Source: Naegleria gruberi (taxonomy: Eukaryota). From it: a DNA stretch of 64,000 bases. Within the stretch, counting starts at the first letter, position 1. Every line of letters begins with the position of its first letter. Under the pieces are notes generated by a model, which searched no databases, was not told where the DNA came from, and saw only the letters and a list, made by a program, of their open reading frames with translations. Both the position numbers and the translations under genes were made by a program. The stretch lies in assembly GCA_000004985.1 (NCBI GenBank), contig GG738854.1. The stretch is one strand, 5' to 3'. This document shows, piece by piece, positions 1 through 24,348 of the stretch.

Positions 1-245
1 ATATATTTTAGTGAAATTCAATATTTTCACTAAAATCATCATCACCGCCAGATTTATATGATAATTTGGAAAACTTTCAATCTAGTATTGTTCAGCATGG
101 TCGATTCCATCAGGTAAAATTACTTCCGAATATTTTCCTATTGGTTATCATGATGATAGGTTCATGTATATTTTCAACATGTACATATACCATATCTCAA
201 CATGTACTTCACCAACTTGAAAAATGTCTTTCATCACTACTATTC
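1..245. repeat. Left arm of a large inverted repeat (diverged; copy B equivalent about 12290-12813)
   Basis: Positions 30-245 are the reverse complement of 2510-2720, diverged to about 70-80% identity. The core ctcaacatgtacttcaccaacttg matches perfectly for 24 bp, and actaaaatcatcatcac matches for 17 bp. In copy B the inverted arm extends at least 500 bp (12290-12813 vs the reverse complement of 15073-15568). Confidence 0.7.
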
Positions 246-1476
246 AAATAGATAATAAACAATATATTTATTATCAGATTTTTATCATTTTGTGTTTTTG
301 CCAATTTCGGGTTATTCATGGTCACCAATCATGATCCATGCCAAAAGTACACAGCCAATCATCTTGAAACATTAATAAACTTTTATTAGTATTATTGTAG
401 GTGTACTATATAAATTATTTCGTCTTGTTTCGTTGAAATCATGAAGATTTGGATTTTTCTGTTTTTCATTAAATTTCACATCACCTACACCATATTTGTT
501 GATGTAAACTAGACTAGTTACATGTACATAATCAATGGTTGATTCTCTAATCATGTTTTAGTGTTGTTTTGTGTATTTAGGATTTTGAAATCTTGCGAAT
601 TATCCTGAGGTTATTCTTCATATAAATATGATTCCTCACTTCATGATATGAGGAGGGATTGATATCATGATTATTTGGAAGTGTTGTACAAATTTTGGAC
701 ACTATCTTAATTGAAATCAGGTAGAAAGAGTCCAATCTTTAACACCATATAAAATATGACTTGTGGCGATGGTTTTGACCTTGTTGTTCATACCTCCAAC
801 ATTGGAAAAGTAGAATGATAAACACCTTTTCTCATCATATTCAATATTTATGGAAGTTATGACCATAAGGATAAATTTCGCATGACCCAAGCATGCAGAT
901 TTTATTCGCCTAGATAAATTTCGCCTAAATTTTAGGCGAAATAAATCGCCTAGAACATAATCTCTTAAATAACCCAAATAAATCAACTCTGAATCCTAAC
1001 CAACCCCAAGCTCTCGCAGTATATGTTAGTAACTGCTACAAAAATTCATCATGGTACAATCGTCCCACTGACTCCTTCATCAAAAACAAAAAATACACTT
1101 CTGCTTACCAAAGGCAACAGCTGTCCCAACCACTTAGCCCGAACCAAACGTCCAAACACTGAACAGAACTAGATGGTTGAACAGCTAGTCTCTTATATCA
1201 TAACGAAGTAGATGTTGAAAAAGTTGGTTATCTTTGAAATTCAATTGATCTTAATGATGTTTAAGGAAATAAGGTTAATTGTTCGATTTAAGGTGAAAGA
1301 AATGAAATAAAAAGAAAAAACAAGAATTTTATTATTTTAATATCATTGTGTAATGTTCACAATGAGTTTGATAATTTTTGAATCACTCTTGAAGGAGTGA
1401 ATCATAAATAAAAGGTGTAAGTTTATTAATGTCTCTTGTATCAATAACGACCTGAGAGACCACACTTTTTCGGCAT

Positions 1477-2310
1477 TTAAGGACTCTGTGCAACATTTGA
1501 ATGATTTGGGTTAAGATTGAGTGCCGTTGAGTGAGTGTGCCTAAAGTAGGCGGATTGGAATTTTGAGTTTTTGATAAAAGGTTGTCGGGAGGGACGGTTG
1601 TACCACATAGTGTTTTTGTAACAATTTTCTAAATAAATGGCGAATGCCTTGTAAATTTCTAGAGCTACAGCCTTAGGAAGTCTTTTGTTCTTTGACCATA
1701 AGAGCCAGTCGCTGCGAGAGCAGCTTCCGTTAAAATCAATAATAAGGCAGTTCCTCACTTTGTCTGAAGGGAGACGAATCGGATCGAGGTTAAATTTGGA
1801 GGAAATATTGTCCCAAGTAGCATACAGTTCCTGTTTTTCATGGTTGCTTTTAGAGCACGATGAGAAAACGTGTGTCCAGTCTTCGGCAGTTTGACATGAA
1901 TCACAGGTTGTATTGTTATCTAGAATAATAGCGTGGTGAAGGTTTAGGAAAAGGAGTCTTTGTTGATAGTAGGAGAGATGGAAATTTCTCCAAAAGGAAA
2001 CAGTTGAAAGGTGCCAATTAAGATTTGAATCTAACTGGCCCAACTCTGAGATGGTTTTTTTGGATCTTTTGAGTTCAAGAATATCGTTTCGTAAGTTGGT
2101 GATGGGTTTGTGTGACGATCTGTCACAAAGAACCCATCCACTCTCTGTTGGATTGAAGTATGCATTGAGTTTGTTGATATTTAAGGCTGCATTTGTCCAG
2201 AGAGAGTCTGTAGATTTGCCTCGGAGAGCTTTTTGAATCGAGGCCCTTGCAATGTTGCGGGTGATTGTGGATGAGGAGTTCACAAATCTACAGACCGATG
2301 CTGTGCATTC
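1477..2310 (-). mobile_element. Degenerate non-LTR (LINE-like) retrotransposon 3' fragment, 5'-truncated
   Basis: The minus-strand ORF 1477-2541 contains C-D-S-C-x4-E-D-W-T-H-V-F-S-S-C-x13-W. This is the Cys/His pattern of the reverse-transcriptase zinc-binding (zf-RVT-like) tail found at the C-terminus of non-LTR ORF2 proteins. No intact RT motifs are recognisable upstream. The 5' end of the ORF runs into an 83-bp tandem duplication. Confidence 0.4.
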
Positions 2311-2314
2311 AATG

Positions 2315-2480
2315 TCTAACACATCTACAGGAGACGTGACTAGAAATCTCTCTCCAAGCCAAAACACAAAATAATGAAAAACTGATATTAAATATGGTCT
2401 AACACATCTACAGGAGACGTGGCTAGAAATCTCTCTCCAAGCCAAAACACAAAATAATGAAAAACTGATATTAAATATGG
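2315..2480. repeat. 83-bp direct tandem duplication (2 units); the same structure occurs at 14883-15048
   Basis: The unit tctaacacatctacaggagacgtgactagaaatctctctccaagccaaaacacaaaataatgaaaaactgatattaaatatggt is repeated twice head-to-tail with a single substitution (gtgactag/gtggctag). Confidence 0.85.
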
Positions 2481-2504
2481 TGTTTATTAGTGATTTAAAC
2501 AATA

Positions 2505-3000
2505 GTACTAGAAGAAAAGTATCCAAGTTGGTGAAGTACATGTTGAGTTATGGTCCATGTACTTTTTTGAAAATTCACATGTACCTATCCCTATCAAAAC
2601 TTGATGAAAATCCACCGTTCAAATTTACTATGCTACTATTGACCATTTCCAACAATCCTACATTAATAGTTTTCCAATCTTTCCAATGGATTCAACAGTG
2701 ATGATGATTTTAGTAAAATGTTGAGTTTCACCAAAATAAAGATATTTCCAAGACATAGAAATCACCCATACTATTCTACTATATTAAATATATCTATGAT
2801 GACGGTTGGTGAGTGTTCCGATGATGGTTTACCAACTTGAAAAATTATAATCCAAAAATTGATTTACTATTTTATGATGAAAGTCCAATAATAAAAATTA
2901 CTACTATTACTACTATTTAGATGATGTTGAGATGATGATGTGAAAGTTTGGCAGCTTACGGATGTGAAACCACTCGAAGAATCATCAAAGTACATCACGT
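2505..3000. repeat. Right arm of the inverted repeat (copy B equivalent 15073-15568)
   Basis: See the left-arm entry. The two arms flank a 2.27-kb core that holds the LINE fragment and the 83-bp duplication. The arm sequence belongs to a roughly 0.5-0.8 kb repeat family that recurs at 3290-3990. Confidence 0.7.
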
Positions 3001-3289
3001 ACTAGATATTGAAATATTTTTTCACATATTCTTAAATGAACAAACAAACCTTGCTTCAAATGGATGAATGACATGCTATGAGAAAAACAATAAAAACATG
3101 AAAATATCAGATATCCATGATTTTCACAAATTATGCTACAAGACTTGAAATTATACATTTAATAACATAATAAACATTATGAATTGTTGTTTTATTGTTG
3201 TTTGATTTGTAATTGGGCTATGAATCAACTCTGATAGCATCAAATATCGGAACTTGGTAAATTGACAACATGACGAAAATCTGATAATA

Positions 3290-4520: not shown

Positions 4521-6580
4521 ATGAACTTCGTTATAGTTATCCTTCTTTGCGTTTTTTTTGTAGTGCCAGTAAATACACAAACCCTGCTTTACAACATTAC
4601 CACTGTTGTTGGTGGGGGTAATGTTGGTGATGGTTTAGTTGCAACAAGTGCTAAATTATATTATCCTTCTGGAATTGCCATCAGTTCAAGTGATGAAACT
4701 TATATTGCTGATACAAACAATCATAGAATTCGTAAAATCACAACATCTGGTATAATTTCAACAATTGCTGGAAATGGAACAGCAGGATATAGTGGTGATG
4801 GTTCATCTGCAAAAAGTGCTCAATTATATTATCCTTCTGGAGTTGCCATCAGTTCAAGTGATGAAATTTATATTGTTGATAGAAGCAATAATAGAATTCG
4901 TAAAATCACAACATCTGGTATAATTTCAACAATTGCTGGAAATGGAACAGCAGGATATAGTGGTGATGGTCATCTGCAACAAGTGCTCAATTATATTTTC
5001 CTTCTGGAATTGCCATCAGTTCAAGTGATGAAATTTATATTGCTGATACAAACAATAATAGAATTCGTAAAATCACAACATCTGGTATAATTTCAACTAT
5101 TGCTGGAACTGGAGGGTATATGTTGGTGATGGTTTAGTTGCAACAAGTGCTAAATTATATTATCCTTCTGGAATTGCCATCAGTTCAAGTGATGAAACTT
5201 ATATTGCTGATACAAACAATCATAGAATTCGTAAAATCACAACATCTGGTATAATTTCAACAATTGCTGGAAATGGAACAGCAGGATATAGTGGTGATGG
5301 TTCATCTGCAAAAAGTGCTCAATTATATTATCCTTCTGGAGTTGCCATCAGTTCAAGTGATGAAATTTATATTGTTGATAGAAGCAATAATAGAATTCGT
5401 AAAATCACAACATCTGGTATAATTTCAACAATTGCTGGAAATGGAACAGCAGGATATAGTGGTGATGGTTCATCTGCAACAAGTGCTCAATTAAATTCTC
5501 CTTCTGGAATTGCCATCAGTTCAAGTGATGAAATTTATATTGCTGATATGTTCAATAATAGAATTCGTAAAATCACAACATCTGGTATTATTTCAACAAT
5601 TGCTGGAACTGGAACATCAGGATATAGTGGTGATGGTTCATCTGCAACAAGTATTCAATTATATTTTCCTTATGGAGTTGCAGTAAGTCTAAGTGATGAA
5701 ATTTATATTGCTGATATGTTCAATAATAGAATTCGTAAAATCACAACATCTGGTATCATTTCTACAATTGCTGGTGGTATAGGCGATGGACTATCAGCAA
5801 CTACAGCTTACATTAATGCCATTACGTTCGAATTTTCCTCAAGTGGTGAAATTTATATTGCTGATACAAACAATCATAGAATTCGTAAAATCACAACATC
5901 TGGTATAATTTCAACAATTGCCGGAACTGGAACATCAGGATATAGTGGTGATGGTTCATCTGCAACAAGTGCTCAATTAAATTCTCCTTATGGAATTGCT
6001 ATCAGTTCAAGTGGTGAAATTTATATTGCTGATACAAACAATAATAGAATTCGTAAAATCACAACATCTGGTATAATTTCAACAATTGCTGGAACTGGAA
6101 CACAAGGATATAGTGGTGATGGTTCATCTGCAACAAGTGCTCAATTATATAATCCTTATGGAGTTGCCATCAGTTCAAGAGGTGAAATTTATGTTGCTGA
6201 TTACAATAATAACAGAATTCGTAAAATCACAACATCTGGCATTATTTCAACAATTGCTGGAACTGGAACATCCGGCTATAGTGGTGATGGTTCATCTGCA
6301 ATAAGTGCTCAATTATATAATCCTTATGGAGTTGCCATCAGTTCAAGTGATGAAATTTATATTACTGATACAAACAATAACAGAATCAGAAAACTTAGTC
6401 CTTGGTGCACTGGAAATGCCATTCTTTTAGATGGATCTTGTGAGTATCCATGTTTTGGAACTACAAACAAAATTCCAGCTGTTGTATGCTCTGGAAAAGG
6501 TTCATGTATTGGCTATAATCAATGCAATTGCACAGCTGATTACTTTGGTTACAAATGTGATGAATTTTATTGCTATGAGT
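4521..6580 (+). CDS. 5' part of an NHL-repeat/EGF receptor-kinase paralog, frame-disrupted and ending in an N-gap
   Basis: It starts with a signal peptide, [21 protein letters not shown]. It then carries at least 11 tandem NHL-type repeats of about 56 aa (168 bp), of the form [53 protein letters not shown]. It ends in the first EGF-like repeat, CEYPCFG...CDEFYCYE, at the gap. The reading frame breaks at about 4975, where ggtgatggtcatctg replaces ggtgatggttcatctg (a 1-bp deletion). It breaks again at about 5110, where a roughly 0.5-kb internal tandem duplication (5117-5500 copying 4610-4990) joins. The last 460 bp are nearly identical to 18720-19190. Confidence 0.55.
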
Positions 6581-6648
6581 NNNNNNNNNNNNNNNNNNNN
6601 NNNNNNNNNNNNNNNNNNNNNNNNNNNNNNNNNNNNNNNNNNNNNNNN

Positions 6649-7128
6649 AACCCAAACCCAAACCCAAACCCAAACCCAAACCTTAACCCAAACCCAAACC
6701 CAAACCCAAACCCAAACCCAAACCCAAACCCAAACCCAAACCCAAACCCAAACCCAAACCCAAACCCAAACCCAAACCCAAACCCAAACCCAAACCCAAA
6801 CCCAAACCCAAACCCAAACCCAAACCCAAACCCAAACCCAAACCCAAACCCAAACCCAAACCCAAACCCAAACCCAAACCCAAACCCAAACCCAAACCCT
6901 AAACCCAAACCCAAACCCAAACCCAAACCCAAACCCAAACCCAAACCCAAACCCAAACCCAAACCCAAACCCAAACCCAAACCCAAACCCAAACCCAAAC
7001 CCAAACCCAAACCCAAACCCAAACCCAAACCCAAACCCAAACCCAAACCCAAACCCAAACCCAAACCCAAACCCAAACCCAAACCCAAACCCAAACCCAA
7101 ACCCAAACCCAAACACAAACCCACACAC
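6649..7128. repeat. Telomeric repeat tract (CCCAAA)n, i.e. (TTTGGG)n on the G-strand
   Basis: About 78 perfect 6-bp units of aaccca/cccaaa, with a few variants (ccttaaccc, ccctaaaccc) and the distal end cccaaacacaaacccacacac. It is preceded by the 68-N gap (6581-6648). Confidence 0.9.
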
Positions 7129-10100
7129 TATTGATACCATTGTGTTCACAATTGAAAATCTAGTCGATTGATATTAGTTTCATCAATTGGTAATATTAAT
7201 ATGGTCAATTAGGGTATCTCAAAGTCAATTTTGAAAAACTAAGAGTAGCTATATAAAATGTCTAATAAATCATAATTATATATCAAAACTGATATCAAAA
7301 TGCTTCAAATTACATATATAACATGATAGAATTGAAATAAATATCATATCTCATATTAAATATTGAGATAGTCAATTAAGGTACCTCAATATGGAAGTAC
7401 CCTAAGGATAATGAGATTCATTACCAAATTGATACAATATGTTATTAACATCATATAATGATGTTCCTATCAATTTCATATCATTTGGACATCATTCAAC
7501 ATTCATGTCATTCAACCATGTCAGCAACTACTCATGGCAATATGAAAAGTCAATATCAAGAGTTGCAACAAGATAGAGTATCATACCACTACTCTTATAA
7601 TTGATATTGATAACGTTTCTGAGTGATAGAAATCAATATCTATATAATTGGAATATCTGCCAAGCTACTGTCCTAATTGATCAAAGGTATCATTCTTACA
7701 TGTCAATAATGGTAAGAATCAATACCAATTCAATATTATCATGTTATAATCATCATATACTCTCNNNNNNNNNNNNNNNNNNNNNNNNNNNNNNNNNNNN
7801 NNNNNNNNNNNNNNNNNNNNNNNNNNNNNNNNNNNNNNNNNNNNNNNNNNNNNNNNNNNNNNNNNNNNNNNNNNNNNNNNNNNNNNNNNNNNNNNNNNNN
7901 NNNNNNNNNNNNNNNNNNNNNNNNNNNNNNNNNNNNNNNNNNNNNNNNNNNNNNNNNNNNNNNNNNNNNNNNNNNNNNNNNNNNNNNNNNNNNNNNNNNN
8001 NNNNNNNNNNNNNNNNNNNNNNNNNNNNNNNNNNNNNNNNNNNNNNNNNNNNNNNNNNNNNNNNNNNNNNNNNNNNNNNNNNNNNNNNNNNNNNNNNNNN
8101 NNNNNNNNNNNNNNNNNNNNNNNNNNNNNNNNNNNNNNNNNNNNNNNNNNNNNNNNNNNNNNNNNNNNNNNNNNNNNNNNNNNNNNNNNNNNNNNNNNNN
8201 NNNNNNNNNNNNNNNNNNNNNNNNNNNNNNNNNNNNNNNNNNNNNNNNNNNNNNNNNNNNNNNNNNNNNNNNNNNNNNNNNNNNNNNNNNNNNNNNNNNN
8301 NNNNNNNNNNNNNNNNNNNNNNNNNNNNNNNNNNNNNNNNNNNNNNNNNNNNNNNNNNNNNNNNNNNNNNNNNNNNNNNNNNNNNNNNNNNNNNNNNNNN
8401 NNNNNNNNNNNNNNNNNNNNNNNNNNNNNNNNNNNNNNNNNNNNNNNNNNNNNNNNNNNNNNNNNNNNNNNNNNNNNNNNNNNNNNNNNNNNNNNNNNNN
8501 NNNNNNNNNNNNNNNNNNNNNNNNNNNNNNNNNNNNNNNNNNNNNNNNNNNNNNNNNNNNNNNNNNNNNNNNNNNNNNNNNNNNNNNNNNNNNNNNNNNN
8601 NNNNNNNNNNNNNNNNNNNNNNNNNNNNNNNNNNNNNNNNNNNNNNNNNNNNNNNNNNNNNNNNNNNNNNNNNNNNNNNNNNNNNNNNNNNNNNNNNNNN
8701 NNNNNNNNNNNNNNNNNNNNNNNNNNNNNNNNNNNNNNNNNNNNNNNNNNNNNNNNNNNNNNNNNNNNNNNNNNNNNNNNNNNNNNNNNNNNNNNNNNNN
8801 NNNNNNNNNNNNNNNNNNNNNNNNNNNNNNNNNNNNNNNNNNNNNNNNNNNNNNNNNNNNNNNNNNNNNNNNNNNNNNNNNNNNNNNNNNNNNNNNNNNN
8901 NNNNNNNNNNNNNNNNNNNNNNNNNNNNNNNNNNNNNNNNNNNNNNNNNNNNNNNNNNNNNNNNNNNNNNNNNNNNNNNNNNNNNNNNNNNNNNNNNNNN
9001 NNNNNNNNNNNNNNNNNNNNNNNNNNNNNNNNNNNNNNNNNNNNNNNNNNNNNNNNNNNNNNNNNNNNNNNNNNNNNNNNNNNNNNNNNNNNNNNNNNNN
9101 NNNNNNNNNNNNNNNNNNNNNNNNNNNNNNNNNNNNNNNNNNNNNNNNNNNNNNNNNNNNNNNNNNNNNNNNNNNNNNNNNNNNNNNNNNNNNNNNNNNN
9201 NNNNNNNNNNNNNNNNNNNNNNNNNNNNNNNNNNNNNNNNNNNNNNNNNNNNNNNNNNNNNNNNNNNNNNNNNNNNNNNNNNNNNNNNNNNNNNNNNNNN
9301 NNNNNNNNNNNNNNNNNNNNNNNNNNNNNNNNNNNNNNNNNNNNNNNNNNNNNNNNNNNNNNNNNNNNNNNNNNNNNNNNNNNNNNNNNNNNNNNNNNNN
9401 NNNNNNNNNNNNNNNNNNNNNNNNNNNNNNNNNNNNNNNNNNNNNNNNNNNNNNNNNNNNNNNNNNNNNNNNNNNNNNNNNNNNNNNNNNNNNNNNNNNN
9501 NNNNNNNNNNNNNNNNNNNNNNNNNNNNNNNNNNNNNNNNNNNNNNNNNNNNNNNNNNNNNNNNNNNNNNNNNNNNNNNNNNNNNNNNNNNNNNNNNNNN
9601 NNNNNNNNNNNNNNNNNNNNNNNNNNNNNNNNNNNNNNNNNNNNNNNNNNNNNNNNNNNNNNNNNNNNNNNNNNNNNNNNNNNNNNNNNNNNNNNNNNNN
9701 NNNNNNNNNNNNNNNNNNNNNNNNNNNNNNNNNNNNNNNNNNNNNNNNNNNNNNNNNNNNNNNNNNNNNNNNNNNNNNNNNNNNNNNNNNNNNNNNNNNN
9801 NNNNNNNNNNNNNNNNNNNNNNNNNNNNNNNNNNNNNNNNNNNNNNNNNNNNNNNNNNNNNNNNNNNNNNNNNNNNNNNNNNNNNNNNNNNNNNNNNNNN
9901 NNNNNNNNNNNNNNNNNNNNNNNNNNNNNNNNNNNNNNNNNNNNNNNNNNNNNNNNNNNNNNNNNNNNNNNNNNNNNNNNNNNNNNNNNNNNNNNNNNNN
10001 NNNNNNNNNNNNNNNNNNNNNNNNNNNNNNNNNNNNNNNNNNNNNNNNNNNNNNNNNNNNNNNNNNNNNNNNNNNNNNNNNNNNNNNNNNNNNNNNNNNN

Positions 10101-12568: not shown

Positions 12569-15500
12569 TAATATTTTAGTGAAATTCAATATTTTCACTA
12601 AAATCATCATCACCGCCAGATTTATATGATAATTTGGAAAACTTTCAATCTAGTATTGTTCAGCATGGTCGATTCCATCAGGTAAAATTACTTCCGAATA
12701 TTTTCCTATTGGTTATCATGATGATAGGTTCATGTATATTTTCAACATGTACATATACCATATCTCAACATGTACTTCACCAACTTGAAAAATGTCTTTC
12801 ATCACTACTATTCAAATAGATAATAAACAATATATTTATTATCAGATTTTTATCATTTTGTGTTTTTGCCAATTTCGGGTTATTCATGGTCACCAATCAT
12901 GATCCATGCCAAAAGTACACAGCCAATCATCTTGAAACATTAATAAACTTTTATTAGTATTATTGTAGGTGTACTATATAAATTATTTCGTCTTGTTTCG
13001 TTGAAATCATGAAGATTTGGATTTTTCTGTTTTTCATTAAATTTCACATCACCTACACCATATTTGTTGATGTAAACTAGACTAGTTACATGTACATAAT
13101 CAATGGTTGATTCTCTAATCATGTTTTAGTGTTGTTTTGTGTATTTAGGATTTTGAAATCTTGCGAATTATCCTGAGGTTATTCTTCATATAAATATGAT
13201 TCCTCACTTCATGATATGAGGAGGGATTGATATCATGATTATTTGGAAGTGTTGTACAAATTTTGGACACTATCTTAATTGAAATCAGGTAGAAAGAGTC
13301 CAATCTTTAACACCATATAAAATATGACTTGTGGCGATGGTTTTGACCTTGTTGTTCATACCTCCAACATTGGAAAAGTAGAATGATAAACACCTTTTCT
13401 CATCATATTCAATATTTATGGAAGTTATGACCATAAGGATAAATTTCGCATGACCCAAGCATGCAGATTTTATTCGCCTAGATAAATTTCGCCTAAATTT
13501 TAGGCGAAATAAATCGCCTAGAACATAATCTCTTAAATAACCCAAATAAATCAACTCTGAATCCTAACCAACCCCAAGCTCTCGCAGTATATGTTAGTAA
13601 CTGCTACAAAAATTCATCATGGTACAATCGTCCCACTGACTCCTTCATCAAAAACAAAAAATACACTTCTGCTTACCAAAGGCAACAGCTGTCCCAACCA
13701 CTTAGCCCGAACCAAACGTCCAAACACTGAACAGAACTAGATGGTTGAACAGCTAGTCTCTTATATCATAACGAAGTAGATGTTGAAAAAGTTGGTTATC
13801 TTTGAAATTCAATTGATCTTAATGATGTTTAAGGAAATAAGGTTAATTGTTCGATTTAAGGTGAAAGAAATGAAATAAAAAGAAAAAACAAGAATTTTAT
13901 TATTTTAATATCATTGTGTAATGTTCACAATGAGTTTGATAATTTTTGAATCACTCTTGAAGGAGTGAATCATAAATAAAAGGTGTAAGTTTATTAATGT
14001 CTCTTGTATCAATAACGACCTGAGAGACCACACTTTTTCGGCATTTAAGGACTCTGTGCAACATTTGAATGATTTGGGTTAAGATTGAGTGCCGTTGAGT
14101 GAGTGTGCCTAAAGTAGGCGGATTGGAATTTTGAGTTTTTGATAAAAGGTTGTCGGGAGGGACGGTTGTACCACATAGTGTTTTTGTAACAATTTTCTAA
14201 ATAAATGGCGAATGCCTTGTAAATTTCTAGAGCTACAGCCTTAGGAAGTCTTTTGTTCTTTGACCATAAGAGCCAGTCGCTGCGAGAGCAGCTTCCGTTA
14301 AAATCAATAATAAGGCAGTTCCTCACTTTGTCTGAAGGGAGACGAATCGGATCGAGGTTAAATTTGGAGGAAATATTGTCCCAAGTAGCATACAGTTCCT
14401 GTTTTTCATGGTTGCTTTTAGAGCACGATGAGAAAACGTGTGTCCAGTCTTCGGCAGTTTGACATGAATCACAGGTTGTATTGTTATCTAGAATAATAGC
14501 GTGGTGAAGGTTTAGGAAAAGGAGTCTTTGTTGATAGTAGGAGAGATGGAAATTTCTCCAAAAGGAAACAGTTGAAAGGTGCCAATTAAGATTTGAATCT
14601 AACTGGCCCAACTCTGAGATGGTTTTTTTGGATCTTTTGAGTTCAAGAATATCGTTTCGTAAGTTGGTGATGGGTTTGTGTGACGATCTGTCACAAAGAA
14701 CCCATCCACTCTCTGTTGGATTGAAGTATGCATTGAGTTTGTTGATATTTAAGGCTGCATTTGTCCAGAGAGAGTCTGTAGATTTGCCTCGGAGAGCTTT
14801 TTGAATCGAGGCCCTTGCAATGTTGCGGGTGATTGTGGATGAGGAGTTCACAAATCTACAGACCGATGCTGTGCATTCAATGTCTAACACATCTACAGGA
14901 GACGTGACTAGAAATCTCTCTCCAAGCCAAAACACAAAATAATGAAAAACTGATATTAAATATGGTCTAACACATCTACAGGAGACGTGGCTAGAAATCT
15001 CTCTCCAAGCCAAAACACAAAATAATGAAAAACTGATATTAAATATGGTGTTTATTAGTGATTTAAACAATAGTACTAGAAGAAAAGTATCCAAGTTGGT
15101 GAAGTACATGTTGAGTTATGGTCCATGTACTTTTTTGAAAATTCACATGTACCTATCCCTATCAAAACTTGATGAAAATCCACCGTTCAAATTTACTATG
15201 CTACTATTGACCATTTCCAACAATCCTACATTAATAGTTTTCCAATCTTTCCAATGGATTCAACAGTGATGATGATTTTAGTAAAATGTTGAGTTTCACC
15301 AAAATAAAGATATTTCCAAGACATAGAAATCACCCATACTATTCTACTATATTAAATATATCTATGATGACGGTTGGTGAGTGTTCCGATGATGGTTTAC
15401 CAACTTGAAAAATTATAATCCAAAAATTGATTTACTATTTTATGATGAAAGTCCAATAATAAAAATTACTACTATTACTACTATTTAGATGATGTTGAGA

Positions 15501-15624
15501 TGATGATGTGAAAGTTTGGCAGCTTACGGATGTGAAACCACTCGAAGAATCATCAAAGTACATCACGTACTAGATGTTGAAATATTTTTTCACATATTCT
15601 TAACTGAACAAACAAACCTTGCTT
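12569..15624. repeat. Segmental duplication copy B (same block as 1-3056)
   Basis: Same ORF set as 1-3056 shifted by 12568 (66/12634, 1477/14045, 2477/15045). The sequence runs upstream into the left inverted arm at 12290-12568. Confidence 0.85.
14045..14878 (-). mobile_element. Second copy of the LINE-like 3' fragment, inside duplication copy B
   Basis: Identical 354-aa minus-strand ORF (14045-15109) with the same zf-RVT-like motif. Confidence 0.4.
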
Positions 15625-15991
15625 CAAAAAATCAACCAAACTCTCGTAATACCTTGCTTGGTTTTCGTTCCAACAATTCAAGCCAAACAACACAAGAGAA
15701 TCTATTTAATATAATTGGAAAATTCAATTGTATAAATGTATCATTCAATTTATCGGTGTTACTAAGGTTGTGCATTTTCCATTTTGGTTTACCGTCATCA
15801 GTATTAAGCGGATGCTCTTCTCCCGTCTTTAGTAAGAAACTGAGTGTTCTCCGTCTCATCCGTCCCCCGTTTCACCGTCACTTAGTACCATCTCTACAGG
15901 ATTTCTTGTAGCTCCTTTTTCAACAGAAAAAAAGAATTATTTAATAAGTTGTGCTCATTGTTGTAAGAATCATTCCTCATCTGAAACAATA

Positions 15992-16206: not shown

Positions 16207-17601
16207 NNNNNNNNNNNNNNNNNNNNNNNNNNNNNNNNNNNNNNNNNNNNNNNNNNNNNNNNNNNNNNNNNNNNNNNNNNNNNNNNNNNNNNNNNNNNNN
16301 NNNNNNNNNNNNNNNNNNNNNNNNNNNNNNNNNNNNNNNNNNNNNNNNNNNNNNNNNNNNNNNNNNNNNNNNNNNNNNNNNNNNNNNNNNNNNNNNNNNN
16401 NNNNNNNNNNNNNNNNNNNNNNNNNNNNNNNNNNNNNNNNNNNNNNNNNNNNNNNNNNNNNNNNNNNNNNNNNNNNNNNNNNNNNNNNNNNNNNNNNNNN
16501 NNNNNNNNNNNNNNNNNNNNNNNNNNNNNNNNNNNNNNNNNNNNNNNNNNNNNNNNNNNNNNNNNNNNNNNNNNNNNNNNNNNNNNNNNNNNNNNNNNNN
16601 NNNNNNNNNNNNNNNNNNNNNNNNNNNNNNNNNNNNNNNNNNNNNNNNNNNNNNNNNNNNNNNNNNNNNNNNNNNNNNNNNNNNNNNNNNNNNNNNNNNN
16701 NNNNNNNNNNNNNNNNNNNNNNNNNNNNNNNNNNNNNNNNNNNNNNNNNNNNNNNNNNNNNNNNNNNNNNNNNNNNNNNNNNNNNNNNNNNNNNNNNNNN
16801 NNNNNNNNNNNNNNNNNNNNNNNNNNNNNNNNNNNNNNNNNNNNNNNNNNNNNNNNNNNNNNNNNNNNNNNNNNNNNNNNNNNNNNNNNNNNNNNNNNNN
16901 NNNNNNNNNNNNNNNNNNNNNNNNNNNNNNNNNNNNNNNNNNNNNNNNNNNNNNNNNNNNNNNNNNNNNNNNNNNNNNNNNNNNNNNNNNNNNNNNNNNN
17001 NNNNNNNNNNNNNNNNNNNNNNNNNNNNNNNNNNNNNNNNNNNNNNNNNNNNNNNNNNNNNNNNNNNNNNNNNNNNNNNNNNNNNNNNNNNNNNNNNNNN
17101 NNNNNNNNNNNNNNNNNNNNNNNNNNNNNNNNNNNNNNNNNNNNNNNNNNNNNNNNNNNNNNNNNNNNNNNNNNNNNNNNNNNNNNNNNNNNNNNNNNNN
17201 NNNNNNNNNNNNNNNNNNNNNNNNNNNNNNNNNNNNNNNNNNNNNNNNNNNNNNNNNNNNNNNNNNNNNNNNNNNNNNNNNNNNNNNNNNNNNNNNNNNN
17301 NNNNNNNNNNNNNNNNNNNNNNNNNNNNNNNNNNNNNNNNNNNNNNNNNNNNNNNNNNNNNNNNNNNNNNNNNNNNNNNNNNNNNNNNNNNNNNNNNNNN
17401 NNNNNNNNNNNNNNNNNNNNNNNNNNNNNNNNNNNNNNNNNNNNNNNNNNNNNNNNNNNNNNNNNNNNNNNNNNNNNNNNNNNNNNNNNNNNNNNNNNNN
17501 NNNNNNNNNNNNNNNNNNNNNNNNNNNNNNNNNNNNNNNNNNNNNNNNNNNNNNNNNNNNNNNNNNNNNNNNNNNNNNNNNNNNNNNNNNNNNNNNNNNN
17601 N

Positions 17602-18074
17602 AACCCAAACCCAAACCCAAACCCAAGGGCAAACCCAAACCCAAACCCAAACCCAAAGCCAAACCCAAACCCAAACCCAAACCCAAACCCAAACCCAAAC
17701 CCAAACCCAAACCCAAACCCAAACCCAAACCCAAACCCAAACCCAAACCCAAACCCAAACCCAAACCCAAACCCAAACCCAAACCCAAACCCAAACCCAA
17801 ACCCAAACCCAAACCCAAACCCAAACCCAAACCCAACCCAAACCCAAACCCAAACCCAAACCCAAACCCAAACCCAAACCCAAACCCAAACCCAAACCCA
17901 AACCCAAACCCAAACCCAACCCAAACCCAAACCCAAACCCAAACCCAAACCCAAACCCAAACCCAAACCCAAACCCAAACCCAAACCCAAACCCAAACCC
18001 AAACCCAAACCCAAACCCAAACCCAAACCCAAACCCAAACCCAAACCCAACCCACCCAAACCCAACCCAAACCC
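17602..18074. repeat. Telomeric repeat tract (CCCAAA)n joined directly to coding sequence
   Basis: About 78 units of CCCAAA with sparse variants (cccaagggc, cccaaagcc, cccaaccca). It is preceded by the N-gap 16207-17601 and is followed immediately at 18075 by in-frame NHL-repeat coding sequence (t caa tta tat aat cct tat gga gtt gcc...). Confidence 0.9.
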
Positions 18075-21000
18075 TCAATTATATAATCCTTATGGAGTTG
18101 CCATCAGTTCAAGTGATGAAATTTATATTGCTGATACAAACAATCATAGAATTCGTAAAATCACAACATCTGGTATTATTTCAACAATTGCTGGAACTGG
18201 AACAGCAGGATATAATGGTGATGGTTCATCTGCAACAAGTGCTAAATTATATTTTCCTTATGGAGTTGCCATCAGTTCAAGTGATGAAATTTATATTGCT
18301 GATATGGATATGTTCAATAATAGAATTCGTAAAATCACAACATCTGGTATTATTTCAACAATTGCTGGCGGTATAGGCGATGGACTATCAGCAACTACAG
18401 CTTACATTAATGCCATTACGTTCGAATTTTCCTCAAGTGGTGAAATTTATATTGCTGATACAAACAATCATAGAATTCGTAAAATCACAACATCTGGTAT
18501 CATTTTAACAATTGCTGGAACTGGAACACAAGGATATAGTGGTGATGGTTCATCTGCAACAAGTGCTCAATTAAATTCTCCTTATGGAGTTGCCATCAGT
18601 TCAAGAGGTGAAATTTATATTGCTGATACAAACAATAACAGAATTCGTAAAATCACAACATCTGGCATTATTTCAACAATTGCTGGAACTGGAACATCAC
18701 GGCTATAGTGGTGATGGTTCATCTGCAACAAGTGCTCAATTATATAATCCTTATGGAGTTGCCATCAGTTCAAGTGATGAAATTTATGTTGCTGATTACA
18801 ATAATAACAGAATTCGTAAAATCACAACATCTGGCATTATTTCAACAATTGCTGGAACTGGAACATCCGGCTATAGTGGTGATGGTTCATCTGCAATAAG
18901 TGCTCAATTATATAATCCTTATGGAGTTGCCATCAGTTCAAGTGATGAAATTTATATTACTGATACAAACAATAACAGAATCAGAAAACTTAGTCCTTGG
19001 TGCACTGGAAATGCCATTCTTTTAGATGGATCTTGTGAGTATCCATGTTTTGGAACTACAAACAAAATTCCAGCTGTTGTATGCTCTGGAAAAGGTTCAT
19101 GTATTGGCTATAATCAATGCAATTGCACAGCTGATTACTTTGGTTACAAATGTGATGAATTTTATTGCTATGAGTTGTTGAGAAATCACTCTGGTGTTTG
19201 TTCATCCCAAGGTATTTGTACTTCTCCCAATGAGTGCTCTTGTTCATCCGGTTATTATGGGGAAAATTGCCAATACTTTTATTGCCACTCTATTCCGTTC
19301 AACTCTTCTACAGTATGTTCGTCAGTAGGAACTTGTATTGGATTGAATAATTGCTCGTGTAATCCAGGATATTCAGGGTCGTATTGCCAAGACTTTACTT
19401 GTTATGGTGTTAGTTCTAAAAACACTACCGTATGTTCTTCTCATGGCACGTGTACATCTCTAAATAATTGCTCTTGCGTTACTGGTTATTATGGAAATAA
19501 TTGCGAGAATTTTGAATGTTTCGATATTCTTTTCACTAATTCTACAGTTTGTTCTAGCAGAGGAAAATGTTTCTCTCCTAACAATTGTACATGTGATTCT
19601 GGATATTATGGATCTAATTGTGAAATGTATGATTGTTATGGATTGTCCAAAAACAGTTCTAATGTATGTTCAGGGCATGGAAGTTGTACTTCATTCAATA
19701 ATTGTACATGTAGAGATGGTTACTTTGATTCTAAATGTGAGTCATTTAATTGTGCCGGAGAGAAATTCACTGGTCAAAGTCTTTGTCAAAATAATGGAAC
19801 TTGTTCTGGCCCTGGAAATTGTGTTTGTCCATATAAGTTTGGAGGAGCAAGATGTGAATATTTTAAATGTTTTTCAGTGACAGCCAACGAACCAAAAGTA
19901 TGCGGAGGACATGGTACATGTCTCAACTATAACAATTGTTCTTGCTCAGAAAAGTGGTTTGGAGAAGATTGTTCAGTTACTAATTGTTTTAATATAACAT
20001 CAAATTCTAGTTCTGTATGTGGTGCTAGAGGAAATTGTAGTGATTATGACAGGTGTACTTGTAATAATGGTTATATTGGTAGAGAATGTGAACATATTGT
20101 TTGTTATGACAGGATTGAAAGTGATAGAATGGTTTGCTCTGGAAATGGTAAATGTATATCACCAAATAATTGTACATGTGAAAGTGGTTTTGTTGGAAAT
20201 GAATGTCAATATCATGAAATTTATTTGAACACATCATCTGCAATGATATTTTCTTTCCATGATAGTCTAATGAAAATGTTGCCAAATGGCAGTGAAATAT
20301 TTTCATGTAATGATATTTTTGAAGAATCTGAACTAATGAAATTTGGCGAAAATTCTATTTTATGTCAATGGAGAAAGAAATCAATGCAAATTTATCTTGG
20401 TTTTGATTACACAATTCAACATTACTCGGTTATTCAAACCAAATTTAATTTTTCAATGATTGTGAACAGTTTAACCAATAATGATGTTTCTTCTTCCAGT
20501 TGTACATTTGGATACTCATTAACAGAAGCATCACCAATGTTAGATTTAGTAATACGTTTGAATTGTGATGATACTTTACATGGATTCACGAAAATGACAA
20601 GTAGATGGATATGTAGTCAATGTAGTGGCGTTATTTCATCATTGTTAAACAAATATTCCAATAGAACATTTATTCATATTCCAATTTCATATACAAACAG
20701 TTTAAACCCTATTCAAGGATATAAGATTATTAATTTACAAGCTCTTTATTCATCTGGAGTGACTAGTGAAAAATCAATAAGTAAGGAAGTGAAGATACAA
20801 ACCTATACAAAATCATTACCCCCTAGTTATTACTGGTTAAGTGATAATTTTGACGGAAAGGCATATTCCTGTATTGGTCATAATTGTATTTTAGAAACTT
20901 CATTGAATAGTTTAAATTCTTCAATTTCATATTCATTTTCTGGCTTTTTCAGTTTATTGAATACTGATTTATATTCCAAACAAATGGTTAGAATGATTAA

Positions 21001-24000
21001 TGAATATTCAGGAGGAGTTTTAGACAGTGAATTTAATTCTAATATGCAAGTTTTTGGAGTTCAATTGAAAACATATGTTTTCTTACCTTTTACTATTGAC
21101 TCTTTTAAATATTCTACATTTAAAAATTTGGATTTCGTAATGACAGGTGTTAATAGAACCTATTCTATCAACTCTGATGAAACAATACGTATTGAGCTAA
21201 TGATTGATGATCCTTATATTTCCAAATATACTTTAAGTGATTATATGGAGTTTTCTTGGCAATGTTTCAAAGTTTCACCTTTCAACAAATCTCAACATTT
21301 AAGTGATAACTTGTGCTCTTCTACTAAATCTTATCTTGAACAAATAGATATTAAGCAAATAATGTCTTCAAAAGAAGGTTCTTATTATATTACTGCTTTA
21401 ATATCCTCCAATAAGTATTTTATAACAACAGTTTATCATTATGAAGGTTATATTGAGTTCTTAGATATTTCAAAGCTCTCTCCAAAAATAACTACAGATT
21501 ATATACCAGCAATTACACCTTCCCATAAGAATATTTATATGAGAAATGTAGTGAAATCTTCAACAATGGTTTCATTTATATGGAAACTCAAACAAGGATA
21601 TTTAAATAATATTGATAATAATATTGAAGAATTTCTTCAAGATAATACAATTTACAGAACTATAATGGAAAATGATATTGAAATAATTTTAAAAATTGAT
21701 AACAAACATTTAATTGAAGGAGAGGTATACGAATTTGAATTGTCAACTACCAATTCAAACGGAATTACCACTATATCCATTTCAACTAGAATTGATTATA
21801 GTCCAAGATTATCCTGTGATGTAGAAAATTTGAAACATGATGTTAATTTTACAAGTTTTGAAACTTTGATAGGTATTAACTGCTTGAAATTACCATATGA
21901 AAGTATTTCAAGTTTTGTAATGGAATTTCATTCAAACAACGAAAGATTAGGTGTAATATCCAATACACCAAAGAAATCTTTGATAACAAAGCTACCGTAC
22001 CCATATTCTAAAGATGGTAGAATTGCTCTTGTCGTAAAACTTCAAAACTTATATGGTTCTATTGGAATTTTTAGAAAAAATATTAAGATTGAATTACCTA
22101 GTTATTTGTTAAATGACAATTCTATCCTATCAAGATTTAATTATATTTCAGATCAATTCCAAATTCTTAAAAATTCTAAACCACTCAAGATGGAAATTTC
22201 CAGTGAAATGAATAGTTTACTCACCCTCTTAATTCAAAATGAAACTCTTTCAACATTATCAGACAGCATTTTGAAAGAATTTAATCCAATGAAAATAAGT
22301 TCATTTAATTCAATGCTTGGTGATATGTTGAAAATAACAAAGAGTTTATGGGATATTACTTACAAAGTTGATGAAAGAGTTATTCAATTAACTTTACCAA
22401 TAATTTACAAGATTTCTAACATTTTAAAAACAACAATTAGTGATACTTCATCATTATCAACATTTAGTATTGAATTAGAAGCTTTTTTGGAATTAATTTA
22501 TTCAGGAATGAAGAAAGCACTTAATTATTATCCAACTTTCATTTATAATGATTTACTTGATAATTATCATTTAGAAGAAATTAAATCATTGCAAAATATT
22601 CTTGCAAATATCCATCAAAATAATTTAGATGAACAATATAAGATCCATAAATTTGCTTTAGAATATTTCAAGTTAACAGGGAATAATGGCGACAATTCAA
22701 GTTTTGTCGAAGATTTAGAATATTCATCTTTATTGAATGAGAAATCAATTTCACTCACAGTTTCCAACTTTAAAGTTGATATCAAATTGCCTAGTGACTT
22801 TTCTAGTCAAATTTCTCTAACTTCCAAATCTAAACTATTCTATTCTATTAGATCATTTAATTCTCCAACTAGACAGGAAACAACACTCCTGCAAAACAAA
22901 CCAATTGTAGATCTATCTCTGTTAGATACATCATACAATACAATCACAGTGAAAAATATTAATCCACCAATAATATTCAAATTTCAAGGCTTAATTACAA
23001 ACAACAAAACTGGTATTAACACTACTTGTGTTTTTTATGATACTACCTTAAAGATATGGTCAACTAGTGGACTTGAGACCTTAACAACAATTAACAAAAG
23101 AACAGATGACTATATTTACTTTGATATGGAATGTAGATCTAATCATTTATCAGTGTTTTCCATCCAAGAAATTAATTATAACTCTCCAATTGTGCAAACA
23201 TCTGGTTTATCATCTACAAGATCCGTTTCTAGTAATGATTCTATATTAATTATCATCTTATCTACAGTGTTGCCTATTACTTTTTTGATATTTGCTTTCA
23301 GTATTATTCTAATTGTCTTTATTATACTTTTATTTAGAAGCAAGCAAAAGAAAGCAAATGAACTTGCGAAAACTAATGCTAATAATATTGAACTTGAAGG
23401 TTTTTCGAGTACTGATTTCCCGACAGAAGGAAGTATGTTTATCCAACCTCTCATGAGCATTTCTTCAAATGGAACTACTAGCGAAGCTTTCAATCCTCTC
23501 TCTAGATATTCCAACTTGATAAGAATTGGTCAAGGAGCTTTCGGATCAGTCTTTAAGGCCTTTGATAGTAAAACAAATTCGGTGAAAGCTATCAAAGTCA
23601 TTAAATATTCTTCCATGGAAGAATTGAATAATTTTATGAAAGAAGGAACTCAATTAATGAATGTCAATCATCCCTATATTTTACGGGTGAATGAATTCTT
23701 TGTTAGTAAGGACCAATTACTTTGTATTGATATGGACTTTTATGAGCTGGGAGATTTAGTTAAGTTAACAAATATTGATTTTGATTGTTCTGAAAAATTG
23801 ATCAAACAAATAATTTATCAAATGTGTCAAGCTCTTGATTATATTCACTGTACTATGAAAATAATTCATAGAGATATCAAACCATCCAATGTTTTTGTGA
23901 AAAGCTTGGAAAAAGATAATATCCACATAATTGTGGCAGATTTTGGGTTAGCTAAATCTAATATTGGATCGACAAATAATTCCTATGCTGGTACTCCTAT

Positions 24001-24348
24001 ATTTATGGTAAGTTTTTTGTACATTTAACATTTTATTCATTTGAAAAGTCCCCTGAGCTTGGTTTGGGTGGAAAGTACTATTACAACACTGATATTTATA
24101 GTTTAGGAGTTACAATCTATCAAATCATGACAAAAGATACCTTTACATCCATAAGTCAATTATACCTAGGTAAAGACCAAACAGATGTAACCAAATTATT
24201 GTATAAAAAGTTACAAGAAAGTGGTCAATATTCTTCAAAACTTGTAGAATTGGTAGTATTAATGTTAACCAAAGATAACTTGATTAGACCACAAGCTCAA
24301 GATATTTTGGAGGATTATTATTTTGATGATTTGAAAAAGAAACAATAA
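18075..24348 (+). CDS. Receptor-type Ser/Thr protein kinase: NHL repeats + about 13 tenascin-type EGF repeats + transmembrane segment + kinase. N-terminally truncated by the telomere; 2 exons
   Basis: Exon 1 is 18076-24007 and exon 2 is 24049-24348. The intron at 24008-24048 starts gtaagt, ends aaaag, and is 41 bp. Splicing joins GTPIFM to [21 protein letters not shown], which is the APE region of the kinase. Kinase motifs present are [21 protein letters not shown] and DFGLAK. The EGF repeats follow CxGxSxxxxVCSxxGxCxxxNxCxCxxGYxGxxCExF. The transmembrane segment is [32 protein letters not shown] 1-bp insertion at about 18697 (acatcacggctatag vs acatccggctatag in the other copies) shifts the frame between NHL repeats. 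This may be a sequencing error or a true disruption. Confidence 0.8.

What the first reader, a model, noticed from the sequence alone, without database searches (positions are those of the whole stretch)
17602..18700. Telomere repeats fused directly to the middle of a receptor-kinase coding sequence (de novo telomere addition / chromosome healing)
The (CCCAAA)n tract ends at 18074. In-frame NHL-repeat codons begin at 18075-18076 (caa tta tat aat cct...). In the paralogous copy the same bases are preceded by ...tctgcaacaagtgct. The gene therefore has no start codon, no signal peptide and no first repeats. Instead it has a chromosome end of the correct polarity (C-strand 5'->3' pointing into the chromosome). 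This is what a terminal truncation healed by telomerase looks like. It would make this receptor gene the first gene on the chromosome arm, with copy-variable repeats at a breakage-prone end.
Basis: seen in the sequence. Interest (0 to 1): 0.75.

Follow-up and report, generated by a model that had tools for sequence, protein, structure and literature searches.

The report
Telomere capping a truncated Naegleria receptor-kinase gene
In this draft Naegleria gruberi scaffold, a contig starts with about 79 telomere repeats joined directly to the middle of a receptor-kinase gene; this most likely records one chromosome copy that broke inside the gene and was re-capped, a known kind of event that needs read-level proof here.

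Summary
An (AACCCA)~79 tract at 17602-18074 abuts in-frame NHL-repeat codons from 18076. TTTGGG is the candidate telomere repeat of Naegleria gruberi, and the window matches that species (100% protein identity).

- The tract is the first sequence of a contig. It sits directly after a 1,395-N scaffold gap.
- A second contig that starts with a telomere tract lies at 6649.
- The "paralogue" at 4521-6580 behaves as the other branch of an assembly fork on the same gene. It differs from the capped copy at 45 of 704 columns next to the junction, then is identical for 398 bp up to its own contig end.

Features that fit telomerase healing of a terminal deletion in one chromosome copy:
- correct polarity;
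- a one-sided junction;
- 1-nt microhomology;
- no subtelomeric DNA between tract and gene;
- gene-dense DNA directly behind.

The contigs placed to the left of the tract can be explained by a shared 3-kb repeat that misled the scaffolder.

Without reads I cannot exclude a chimeric clone, a collapsed second locus or an interstitial tract. Verdict: probably real (about 0.55), a new member of a known kind, modest interest.

The parts
17602..18074 (+). Telomere tract, C-rich strand (CCCAAA)n read 5'->3' into the contig. It has about 79 units. Three short variant units lie within about 30 bp of the junction, and probable read-end errors lie at 17626-17660.
   Evidence: TTTGGG is the candidate N. 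gruberi telomere repeat (PMC3622300).
16207..17601 (.). Scaffold gap of 1,395 N directly left of the tract. The tract is therefore a contig start.
18070..18080 (+). Telomere/gene junction. On the G-strand it reads ...AATTGA(G)|GGTTTGGG, where the intact copy reads ...AATTGAG|CACTTG. The overlap is 1 nt (C at 18074).
18076..24348 (+). 5'-truncated receptor-kinase gene. It contains about 5.4 NHL units, an EGF array, a long ectodomain, a transmembrane segment and a protein kinase domain. There is a 1-base frameshift near 18697, a 41-nt intron at 24008-24048 and a stop codon at 24346-24348. It has no start codon or signal peptide.
   Evidence: exon 2 is supported by tblastn with P0004.
18075..18777 (+). 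Segment next to the junction that differs from the intact copy at 45 of 704 alignment columns (6.4%). This makes it a distinct haplotype or copy.
18778..19175 (+). 398 bp identical to 6183-6580, which is the end of contig C1. This is the shared trunk of an assembly fork.
4521..6580 (+). Intact 5' part of the same gene on contig C1: signal peptide, NHL units and the start of the EGF region. The contig stops at 6580. It contains a 500-bp internal duplication and two frameshifts that are probably assembly errors.
6649..7764 (+). Contig C2. A second (CCCAAA)79 tract (6649-7123) in the same polarity, followed by 641 bp of 27% GC non-coding flank. It looks like an ordinary chromosome end and may be the undeleted end of the same arm.
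3..3060 (+). Copy of a 3-kb repeat at the start of contig C1, 99.93% identical to 12571-15628. The flanks diverge immediately after 3060 and 15628.
12571..15628 (+). Copy of the same 3-kb repeat in contig C3. Its spacing to the gene in C4 equals the spacing within C1 to within 27 bp, which explains why C3 was scaffolded left of the telomere tract.

Best explanation
The window comes from the draft Naegleria gruberi assembly. Naegleria is described as a heterozygous diploid, but I did not establish the strain or the sequencing method.

One chromosome copy suffered a double-strand break inside the tandem NHL-repeat region of a receptor-kinase gene. All distal DNA was lost: the promoter, the signal peptide, the first 2.5-5.5 NHL units and everything out to the old telomere. 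Telomerase then re-capped the 3' end ...AATTGA(G) by adding TTTGGG repeats directly to it.

The other copy keeps the intact gene (contig C1). It probably also keeps the original chromosome end, with C2 a candidate for that end. The assembler therefore produced a fork. A shared trunk runs from 18778 onward. One left branch ends in a telomere and the other continues into the full gene.

The scaffolder used clones whose repeat-end reads could be placed in either copy of a 99.93%-identical 3-kb repeat. It stacked the small contigs C1-C3 to the left of the telomere-started contig.

Status of each step:
- Shown: the repeat identity, polarity, junction, fork geometry and spacing.
- Inferred: terminal position, heterozygosity of the event, telomerase as the agent, and the scaffolding explanation.

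The capped copy has no promoter and no signal peptide, so it is most likely silent or non-functional.
For: Organism and repeat:
- window:38057-40540 is 100% identical to an N. gruberi protein on a 665,159-bp contig.
- TTTGGG is the candidate N. gruberi telomere repeat (PMC3622300).

The tract behaves as a chromosome end:
- It has about 79 units with the C-strand 5'->3' pointing into the contig.
- It has only one junction. The contigs to its left, C1 (ends 6580) and C3 (ends 16206), end in unique sequence with no CCCAAA. This is expected for a terminal tract and not for an interstitial one.

The junction looks like healing:
- The junction lies inside an NHL codon series that is internal in C1, with a 1-nt overlap.
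- Healed human terminal deletions typically show 1-5 nt of microhomology (PMC3136441).
- No subtelomeric DNA lies between the tract and the gene. The C2 flank has no match at the C4 junction, which argues against telomere capture.
- Dense long ORFs follow directly behind the gene.

Fork geometry:
- There are 45 differences in the first 704 bp and none in the next 398 bp up to C1's end. The probability of that clean tail at the same difference rate is about 4e-12.
- So two distinct sequences join one trunk, and the sequence next to the tract is not simply C1's.
- The tract plus the divergent segment total 1,177 bp. By my estimate that is more than one Sanger read (assuming Sanger sequencing), so more than one read would support that branch.

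Scaffolding:
- The repeat-to-gene offset is 12,568 for C1->C3 and 12,595 for C1->C4, a difference of 27 bp. This accounts for the placement of C3.

Background:
- Naegleria is described as a heterozygous diploid with aneuploidy and loss of heterozygosity (PMC9928731).
Against: - No reads, clone mates or coverage data are available, so the number of reads crossing 18074/18075 is unknown.
- The tract abuts an N gap inside a scaffold, so the assembly itself does not state that it is terminal.
- The 6.4% divergence in the 700 bp next to the junction is high for alleles. It could mean that this segment comes from another locus.
- The NHL tandem array is clearly hard to assemble. C1 has a perfect 348-bp internal duplication and two frameshifts, and C4 has a frameshift at 18697. 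Contig breaks and odd joins are therefore expected here for technical reasons.
- The 1-nt microhomology carries no statistical weight.
- The presence of telomerase in N. gruberi was not tested here.
Confidence: 0.55

Rival explanations
1. Assembly or cloning artefact. The assembler broke the contig inside the 168-bp NHL tandem array, as assemblers often do. A chimeric clone or read joining a telomere fragment to NHL sequence was then used to extend the broken end. No chromosome ends here.
For: - The tract is at a contig start next to an N gap, and probable read-end errors lie at its far end (17626-17660). This suggests few reads.
- Both arrays are about 475 bp long. Their length is therefore probably set by read length, not by biology.
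- The surrounding repeat region shows other signs of misassembly: the C1 duplication and frameshifts and the frameshift at 18697.
Against: - The 704 bp next to the junction differ from C1 at 45 columns. The junction read therefore belongs to a second real sequence.
- If that sequence continued leftwards, several reads should span 18075 and out-vote a single chimera, yet the consensus is a clean tract for 473 bp.
- Telomere DNA is a very small fraction of the genome, and only half of random joins would have the right polarity.
- The join falls exactly where an intact copy shows continuous coding sequence, with no vector or foreign bases.
Confidence: 0.2
2. A separate locus. A telomere-capped fragment of a near-identical gene copy, an older healed truncation, sits at some other chromosome end. 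The assembler collapsed it onto this gene through the identical stretch. C1, not the telomere, would then be the true left continuation of the trunk at this locus.
For: - The 6.4% divergence in 18075-18777, followed by perfect identity, is more typical of recently converted paralogues than of alleles.
- The gene belongs to a multi-copy N. gruberi family (P0001-P0004).
- The scaffold also contains a second telomere-started contig.
Against: - The closest annotated N. gruberi relative is only 67-70% identical.
- No protein more than 65% identical to the junction-proximal 210 aa exists in the database, so no near-identical paralogue is annotated.
- No right-hand fork is visible in the 45 kb of C4.
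- Even in this reading, a telomere is fused to a truncated NHL coding sequence, so healing still happened; only the address changes.
Confidence: 0.15
3. Interstitial telomeric tract. The scaffold order is right and the (CCCAAA)n block lies inside the chromosome, with C3 and unsequenced DNA to its left. It could have been inserted at a repaired break or left by an ancient end fusion.
For: - The scaffold places C1-C3 to the left of the tract.
- The C3-to-C4 spacing is collinear with C1 to within 27 bp.
Against: - No contig in the window ends in CCCAAA from the left side.
- C3's right flank (15629-16206) is unrelated to C1's upstream sequence.
- The 27-bp agreement is better explained by clones of the C1 locus whose repeat-end reads were placed in C3.
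- Two tracts of at least 470 bp in the same orientation, each with its left side missing, would be an odd coincidence.
Confidence: 0.05

Closest known systems
Spontaneous chromosome breakage and telomerase healing in Plasmodium falciparum culture lines (Bottius et al. 1998, cited in PMC5513710; the earlier gene-truncation cases are from my own knowledge)
   Same: A unicellular eukaryote kept in long-term culture. Telomere repeats are added directly to a broken end inside a gene near a chromosome end. Everything distal is lost, and no subtelomeric DNA lies at the join.
   Different: In Plasmodium the events were proven by Southern blots, cloning and telomerase assays, and they occur in a haploid stage. 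Here the evidence is a single consensus junction in a draft assembly of a diploid, with the intact copy still present.
Human constitutional terminal deletions stabilised by telomere healing (22q13; PMC3136441)
   Same: A heterozygous terminal deletion. The junction joins unique sequence directly to telomere repeats with 1-5 nt of microhomology. The breakpoint can fall in a repeat within a gene.
   Different: Different organism and repeat unit. The human cases were confirmed by junction PCR and copy-number data. In the cases classed as telomere capture, subtelomeric sequence is present at the join; it is absent here.
Programmed chromosome fragmentation with de novo telomere addition in ciliates (for example Paramecium, PMC13076228; Oxytricha, PMC3558436)
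   Same: Assemblies contain contigs that start with telomere repeats at internal positions of longer scaffolds. Alternative long and short chromosome forms coexist.
   Different: The window is N. gruberi, a heterolobosean with no known nuclear dimorphism (my own knowledge). It uses the standard genetic code, shown by an 1,814-codon ORF with no in-frame TAA or TAG. There is no evidence of a programmed or recurrent site.
Interstitial telomeric sequences
   Same: A block of telomere repeats found inside an assembled sequence.
   Different: An interstitial tract has unique DNA on both sides. Here only the proximal side exists, and the distal side is an N gap.

Membership tests
De novo telomere addition (chromosome healing) at a terminal deletion | The tract consists of the organism's own telomeric repeat | tested here: met
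   (TTTGGG)n with about 79 units. The window is N. gruberi. TTTGGG is reported as its candidate telomere repeat (PMC3622300). That report is a computational candidate, not a biochemical proof.
De novo telomere addition (chromosome healing) at a terminal deletion | Correct polarity: the G-rich strand runs 5'->3' towards the end | tested here: met
   The C-strand reads 5'->3' into the contig at its left end. On the minus strand the gene sequence is followed by GGTTTGGG....
De novo telomere addition (chromosome healing) at a terminal deletion | Repeats are joined directly to sequence that is internal in an intact reference copy, with no subtelomeric DNA | tested here: met
   The junction corresponds to C1 position 5486 inside the NHL array. 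The C2 subtelomeric flank is absent at the C4 junction.
De novo telomere addition (chromosome healing) at a terminal deletion | 0 to a few nt of homology to the telomere repeat at the join | tested here: met
   1 nt (G on the G-strand; C at 18074). This is compatible but carries no statistical weight.
De novo telomere addition (chromosome healing) at a terminal deletion | The tract is physically terminal, with nothing distal on that molecule | tested here: inconclusive
   The tract runs into an N gap and other contigs are scaffolded to its left. No left-hand junction exists in the window.
De novo telomere addition (chromosome healing) at a terminal deletion | Independent molecules support the junction (reads, PCR, Bal31 or Southern) | not testable with these tools
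   No N. gruberi reads or other assemblies could be reached. All seven encoding-contig look-ups returned nothing.
De novo telomere addition (chromosome healing) at a terminal deletion | The organism has active telomerase | not tested
   The literature search gave nothing specific.
Telomere capture (break-induced copying of another chromosome end) | Subtelomeric sequence from another end lies between the breakpoint and the repeats | tested here: not met
   The repeats start at the base after the NHL sequence. Nothing similar to the only other subtelomeric flank available (7124-7764) is present.
Interstitial telomeric sequence | Non-telomeric DNA flanks the tract on both sides of one molecule | tested here: inconclusive
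   Only the right flank is sequenced. The contigs to the left do not end in repeats.
Ciliate programmed fragmentation | A ciliate genome with developmentally fragmented macronuclear chromosomes | tested here: not met
   The organism is Naegleria gruberi. It uses the standard stop codons.
NHL-repeat / EGF receptor protein kinase (the gene that is truncated) | NHL repeats, an EGF array, a transmembrane segment and a protein-kinase domain | tested here: met
   Pfam hits: NHL 9.6e-15, EGF_2 2.6e-38, Pkinase 1.3e-33. HRD and DFG motifs and a hydrophobic segment are present in the ORF. N. gruberi, N. fowleri and N. lovaniensis homologues have the same architecture.

The most novel reading that the evidence does not exclude
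The sequenced N. gruberi culture carries two coexisting forms of one chromosome arm. The long form ends at the C2 telomere. The short form was broken inside the NHL tandem array of a receptor-kinase gene and re-capped with TTTGGG repeats. This would be the first documented chromosome-healing event in a heterolobosean. It would also be direct evidence that TTTGGG is synthesised de novo by Naegleria telomerase. The irregular first units (TTGGG, TGGG) would hint at how the enzyme aligns on a non-telomeric primer.

A more exotic version is that Naegleria recurrently or programmatically breaks at such tandem-repeat genes. Nothing here supports that version.
Probability: 0.5. Interest if true: 0.4.

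Novelty: new member of a known kind. Interest (0 to 1): 0.3.

Why it matters
If real, this would be an example of telomere healing in Naegleria (Heterolobosea). My literature searches found no earlier report, and telomere biology in this lineage is barely studied: the repeat itself is only a computational candidate.

A healed break would show three things:
- TTTGGG can be added to non-telomeric DNA.
- Chromosome ends in a cultured strain can differ between chromosome copies.
- Tandem-repeat surface-receptor genes near chromosome ends are breakage sites.

It also matters for anyone using this assembly. The first ~18 kb of this window is a stack of alternative contigs, not a linear sequence. No protein matching this receptor gene was found in the database searched.

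If it is an artefact, the lesson is only that contigs starting with telomere repeats after N gaps must be checked against reads.

Tried and rejected
- Ciliate origin. CCCAAA repeats plus internal telomere-started contigs suggested a Paramecium-like macronuclear assembly. I rejected this because the ORFs use the standard code and the proteins are N. gruberi.
- Independent DNA for this locus. Seven encoding-contig look-ups returned nothing. These covered window ORFs, the 134-aa ORF created by the frameshift, the 1,814-aa ORF, P0121 and P0001. No second assembly or read set could be examined.
- A near-identical paralogue. Two protein searches found no N. gruberi protein more than 70% identical. 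This is weak evidence against a second locus. It also shows that no protein matching this gene is in the database.
- C1 and C3 as simple alleles of one locus. Rejected as a full explanation, because their sequences diverge completely right after the shared 3-kb repeat.
- A register shift in the repeat array as the cause of the C1/C4 differences. Rejected: no C1 unit matches the first C4 unit better than 14 differences in 174 bp.
- Literature on Naegleria telomeres, subtelomeres or TERT. Only the TTTGGG candidate report was found. The N. gruberi genome paper is not held.
- Telomere capture. Rejected because no subtelomeric sequence lies at the join.
Full report
**What is in the sequence**

The window is not continuous sequence. 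It contains three N runs: 6581-6648, 7765-11217 and 16207-17601. These divide it into four contigs:

| Contig | Coordinates |
|---|---|
| C1 | 1-6580 |
| C2 | 6649-7764 |
| C3 | 11218-16206 |
| C4 | 17602-64000 |

The tract in the finding is the first sequence of C4. It is (AACCCA)n at 17602-18074, 79.8 copies at 96% match. C2 also starts with such a tract: 6649-7123, 79.0 copies, same orientation. The 12-mer CCCAAACCCAAA occurs 136 times, only in these two arrays and only on the + strand; shuffles give 0.

The junction reads ...cccaaaccc|tcaattatataatcc. From 18076 the frame translates as [33 protein letters not shown]..., which is NHL repeats.

**Organism and repeat**

- The ORF at 38057-40540 (-) is 100% identical over 827 aa to a predicted protein of Naegleria gruberi on a 665,159-bp contig.
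- The receptor gene's nearest relatives are N. gruberi, N. fowleri and N. lovaniensis proteins with the same NHL/EGF/kinase architecture.
- ORFs are long and use the standard code. This rules out my first guess of a ciliate macronuclear assembly.
- A broad survey of eukaryotic telomeres names TTTGGG as the candidate telomere repeat found in the N. gruberi genome sequence (PMC3622300).
- The tract is thus the species' own candidate telomere repeat. Its polarity is that of a left chromosome end.

**The gene**

From 18076 the gene runs through about 5.4 NHL units, an EGF array, a long ectodomain, a transmembrane segment and a kinase domain (Pfam; ORF).

- A 41-nt intron lies at 24008-24048 and the stop codon at 24346-24348.
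- A single extra base near 18697 shifts the frame. I cannot tell whether this is a sequencing error.
- Nothing upstream of 18076 can supply a start codon or a signal peptide.
- No N. gruberi protein in the database is more than 70% identical to this gene, so no gene model for it is present there.

**The 'paralogous copy' is the other branch of a fork on the same gene**

C1 carries a signal peptide at 4521 ([20 protein letters not shown]), NHL units and the beginning of the EGF region. It stops at 6580, a contig end.

Aligned to C4, position 5486 of C1 corresponds to the junction. The two sequences differ at 45 columns in the 704 bp from 18074 to 18777 (6.4%). They are then identical for 398 bp up to C1's last base, where 6580 corresponds to 19175. 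At the same difference rate, a clean 398-bp tail has a probability of about 4e-12.

This is the geometry of an assembly fork. There is one trunk, C4 from 18778 onward, and two left branches: one ends in telomere repeats and the other continues into the intact 5' gene. A register shift within the repeat array does not explain the differences, because no C1 unit matches the first C4 unit better than 14 differences in 174 bp. Two real sequences therefore exist, and the one carrying the telomere is not C1's.

**Why contigs sit to the left of a telomere**

C1 3-3060 and C3 12571-15628 are 99.93% identical, with 2 mismatches in 3,058 bp. Their flanks diverge completely right after the repeat. This is a 3-kb dispersed repeat.

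The offset between the two repeat copies is 12,568. The offset between C1's gene and C4's gene is 12,595. The scaffold therefore spaces C3's repeat from C4's gene exactly as C1's repeat is spaced from C1's gene, to within 27 bp.

The simplest reading is that the 1,395-N gap was computed from clones of the C1 locus whose repeat-end reads were placed in C3. C1, which then competes for the same scaffold coordinates, was pushed to the far left. C1 begins 2 nt outside the repeat boundary. That is what a contig start at a repeat edge looks like, and it suggests that window position 1 is the scaffold start.

These are inferences from geometry, not from clone data.

They remove the main objection to a terminal position. 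In addition, neither C1 nor C3 ends in CCCAAA. Each array has only one sequenced junction, as expected for chromosome ends and not for interstitial tracts.

**Junction anatomy**

On the G-strand, the capped copy reads 5'-...GGATTATATAATTGAG GGTTTGGG TTGGG TTTGGG TGGG TTGGG (TTTGGG)n. The intact copy reads ...AATTGAG CACTTGTTGC. The overlap is therefore one G.

- Healed human terminal deletions usually show 1-5 nt of such microhomology (PMC3136441). One nucleotide has no statistical weight.
- No subtelomeric DNA lies between the tract and the gene.
- The only other subtelomeric flank available is C2 7124-7764, which is 27% GC and non-coding. It has no match at the C4 junction. This argues against telomere capture.
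- Behind the gene, C4 is ordinary gene-dense DNA.
- Both arrays are about 475 bp long and have odd bases at their far ends. Their length probably reflects read length, so the true telomeres are at least this long.

**Most likely explanation (about 0.55)**

One chromosome copy broke within the NHL tandem array and lost everything distal. Telomerase then re-capped it. The other copy is intact. [quoted passage not shown] C2 may be the original end of the same arm, but that is not shown.

The tract plus the divergent segment span 1,177 bp. By my estimate that is more than one Sanger read, if the assembly is Sanger-based, which I did not verify. More than one read would then support the capped branch. 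If that sequence also continued leftwards, reads spanning 18075 should have out-voted a lone chimera.

**Rival explanations**

1. A chimeric clone or read used to extend a contig break caused by the tandem repeat (0.2). The NHL region is visibly hard to assemble. C1 contains a 500-bp internal duplication with 348 identical bases (4621-4968 = 5120-5468), and both of its frameshifts lie there.
2. A telomere-capped fragment of a near-identical copy at another chromosome end, collapsed onto this gene (0.15). The 6.4% divergence favours this reading. The lack of any annotated near-identical paralogue and of a right-hand fork argues against it. Healing would still have occurred, but elsewhere.
3. 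A true interstitial tract (0.05).

**Comparison with what is known**

The closest parallels are:
- spontaneous or Cas9-induced breakage healed by telomere repeats in cultured Plasmodium falciparum (PMC5513710, citing Bottius et al. 1998);
- human terminal deletions healed by telomerase (PMC3136441).

Programmed fragmentation in ciliates produces similar assembly patterns, but that family is excluded by the organism. This is a new member of a known kind, in a lineage where my searches found no earlier report, and it rests on one consensus junction in a draft assembly.

**What could not be done**

No reads, mate information, depth data or second assembly of N. gruberi could be reached. Seven look-ups returned nothing, and the genome paper is not held. 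The decisive tests are listed under next steps. They are trace or long-read mapping across 17602-19200, depth over 3061-4520, telomere-anchored PCR and Bal31 digestion.

**Verdict**

Novelty is low and certainty is limited. Interest: 0.3.

Noticed in passing
window 3-3060 and 12571-15628: A 3,058-bp dispersed repeat with only 2 mismatches between copies. It contains a 354-aa ORF on the minus strand (1477-2541 / 14045-15109) with no Pfam match, and an 83-bp tandem duplication (2314-2481 / 14882-15049). Degenerate relatives (77-91% identity) lie at 3265-3803, 3893-4040 and 12277-12861. It is probably a recently active mobile element.
   Followed up: partly
window 4621-5468: C1 contains a 500-bp direct duplication. 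4621-4968 is 100% identical to 5120-5468, and the second copy repeats the N-terminal '[15 protein letters not shown]' motif of the first NHL unit. Both C1 frameshifts (4969 and about 5113-5119) lie at this duplication. It is probably a misassembly, so the '10.6 copies' of the NHL unit is likely an overcount.
   Followed up: partly
window 6649-7764: A second contig that starts with a telomere tract. Its flank is AT-rich (27% GC) and non-coding, with degenerate units at the junction (GTGTGTGGGTTTGTG). It is unrelated to the rest of the window. It could be the undeleted end of the same chromosome arm or an unrelated end scaffolded here by mistake.
   Followed up: partly
window 17602-18074 versus 6649-7123: The array on the truncated gene has four TTGGG units and one TGGG unit; three of these five lie within 30 bp of the junction. 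The other array has no TTGGG units. This could reflect irregular first rounds of synthesis on a non-telomeric primer, or just sequence errors.
   Followed up: no
window 18076-18705: The NHL units of this Naegleria receptor are 44-65% identical to NHL-repeat proteins of bacteria from metagenomes. These fill the whole top-120 list, with no eukaryotic hit among them. This could mean bacterial ancestry of the domain, or it could simply reflect database composition.
   Followed up: no
window 18076-24348 and 4521-6580: No N. gruberi protein in the database matches this 6-kb receptor-kinase gene at more than 70% identity. No gene model for it is present there, perhaps because of the gap, the telomere tract and the frameshift.
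   Followed up: partly
window 11218-12157: The left part of C3 has internal direct repeats: 11218-11422 matches 11802-12005 at 95%, and 11611-11725 matches 12043-12157 at 92%. It also holds a 51-bp piece of the 3-kb repeat at 11716-11766. This repeat-rich DNA contrasts with the gene-dense C4.
   Followed up: no
window 15973-16206: The right end of C3 carries what looks like the start of a small gene (MTLKKVYGSFNQTKDIEKTQQYCFECQIEAVGDYEK...) running into the N gap. It is unrelated to the sequence upstream of the receptor gene in C1.
   Followed up: no
window 24456-27026 (-) and 52931-63403 (+): The neighbouring genes include a protein kinase fused to ten DUF4116 repeats (E 7.7e-135) and an uninterrupted 3,490-aa ORF that I did not examine.
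   Followed up: no
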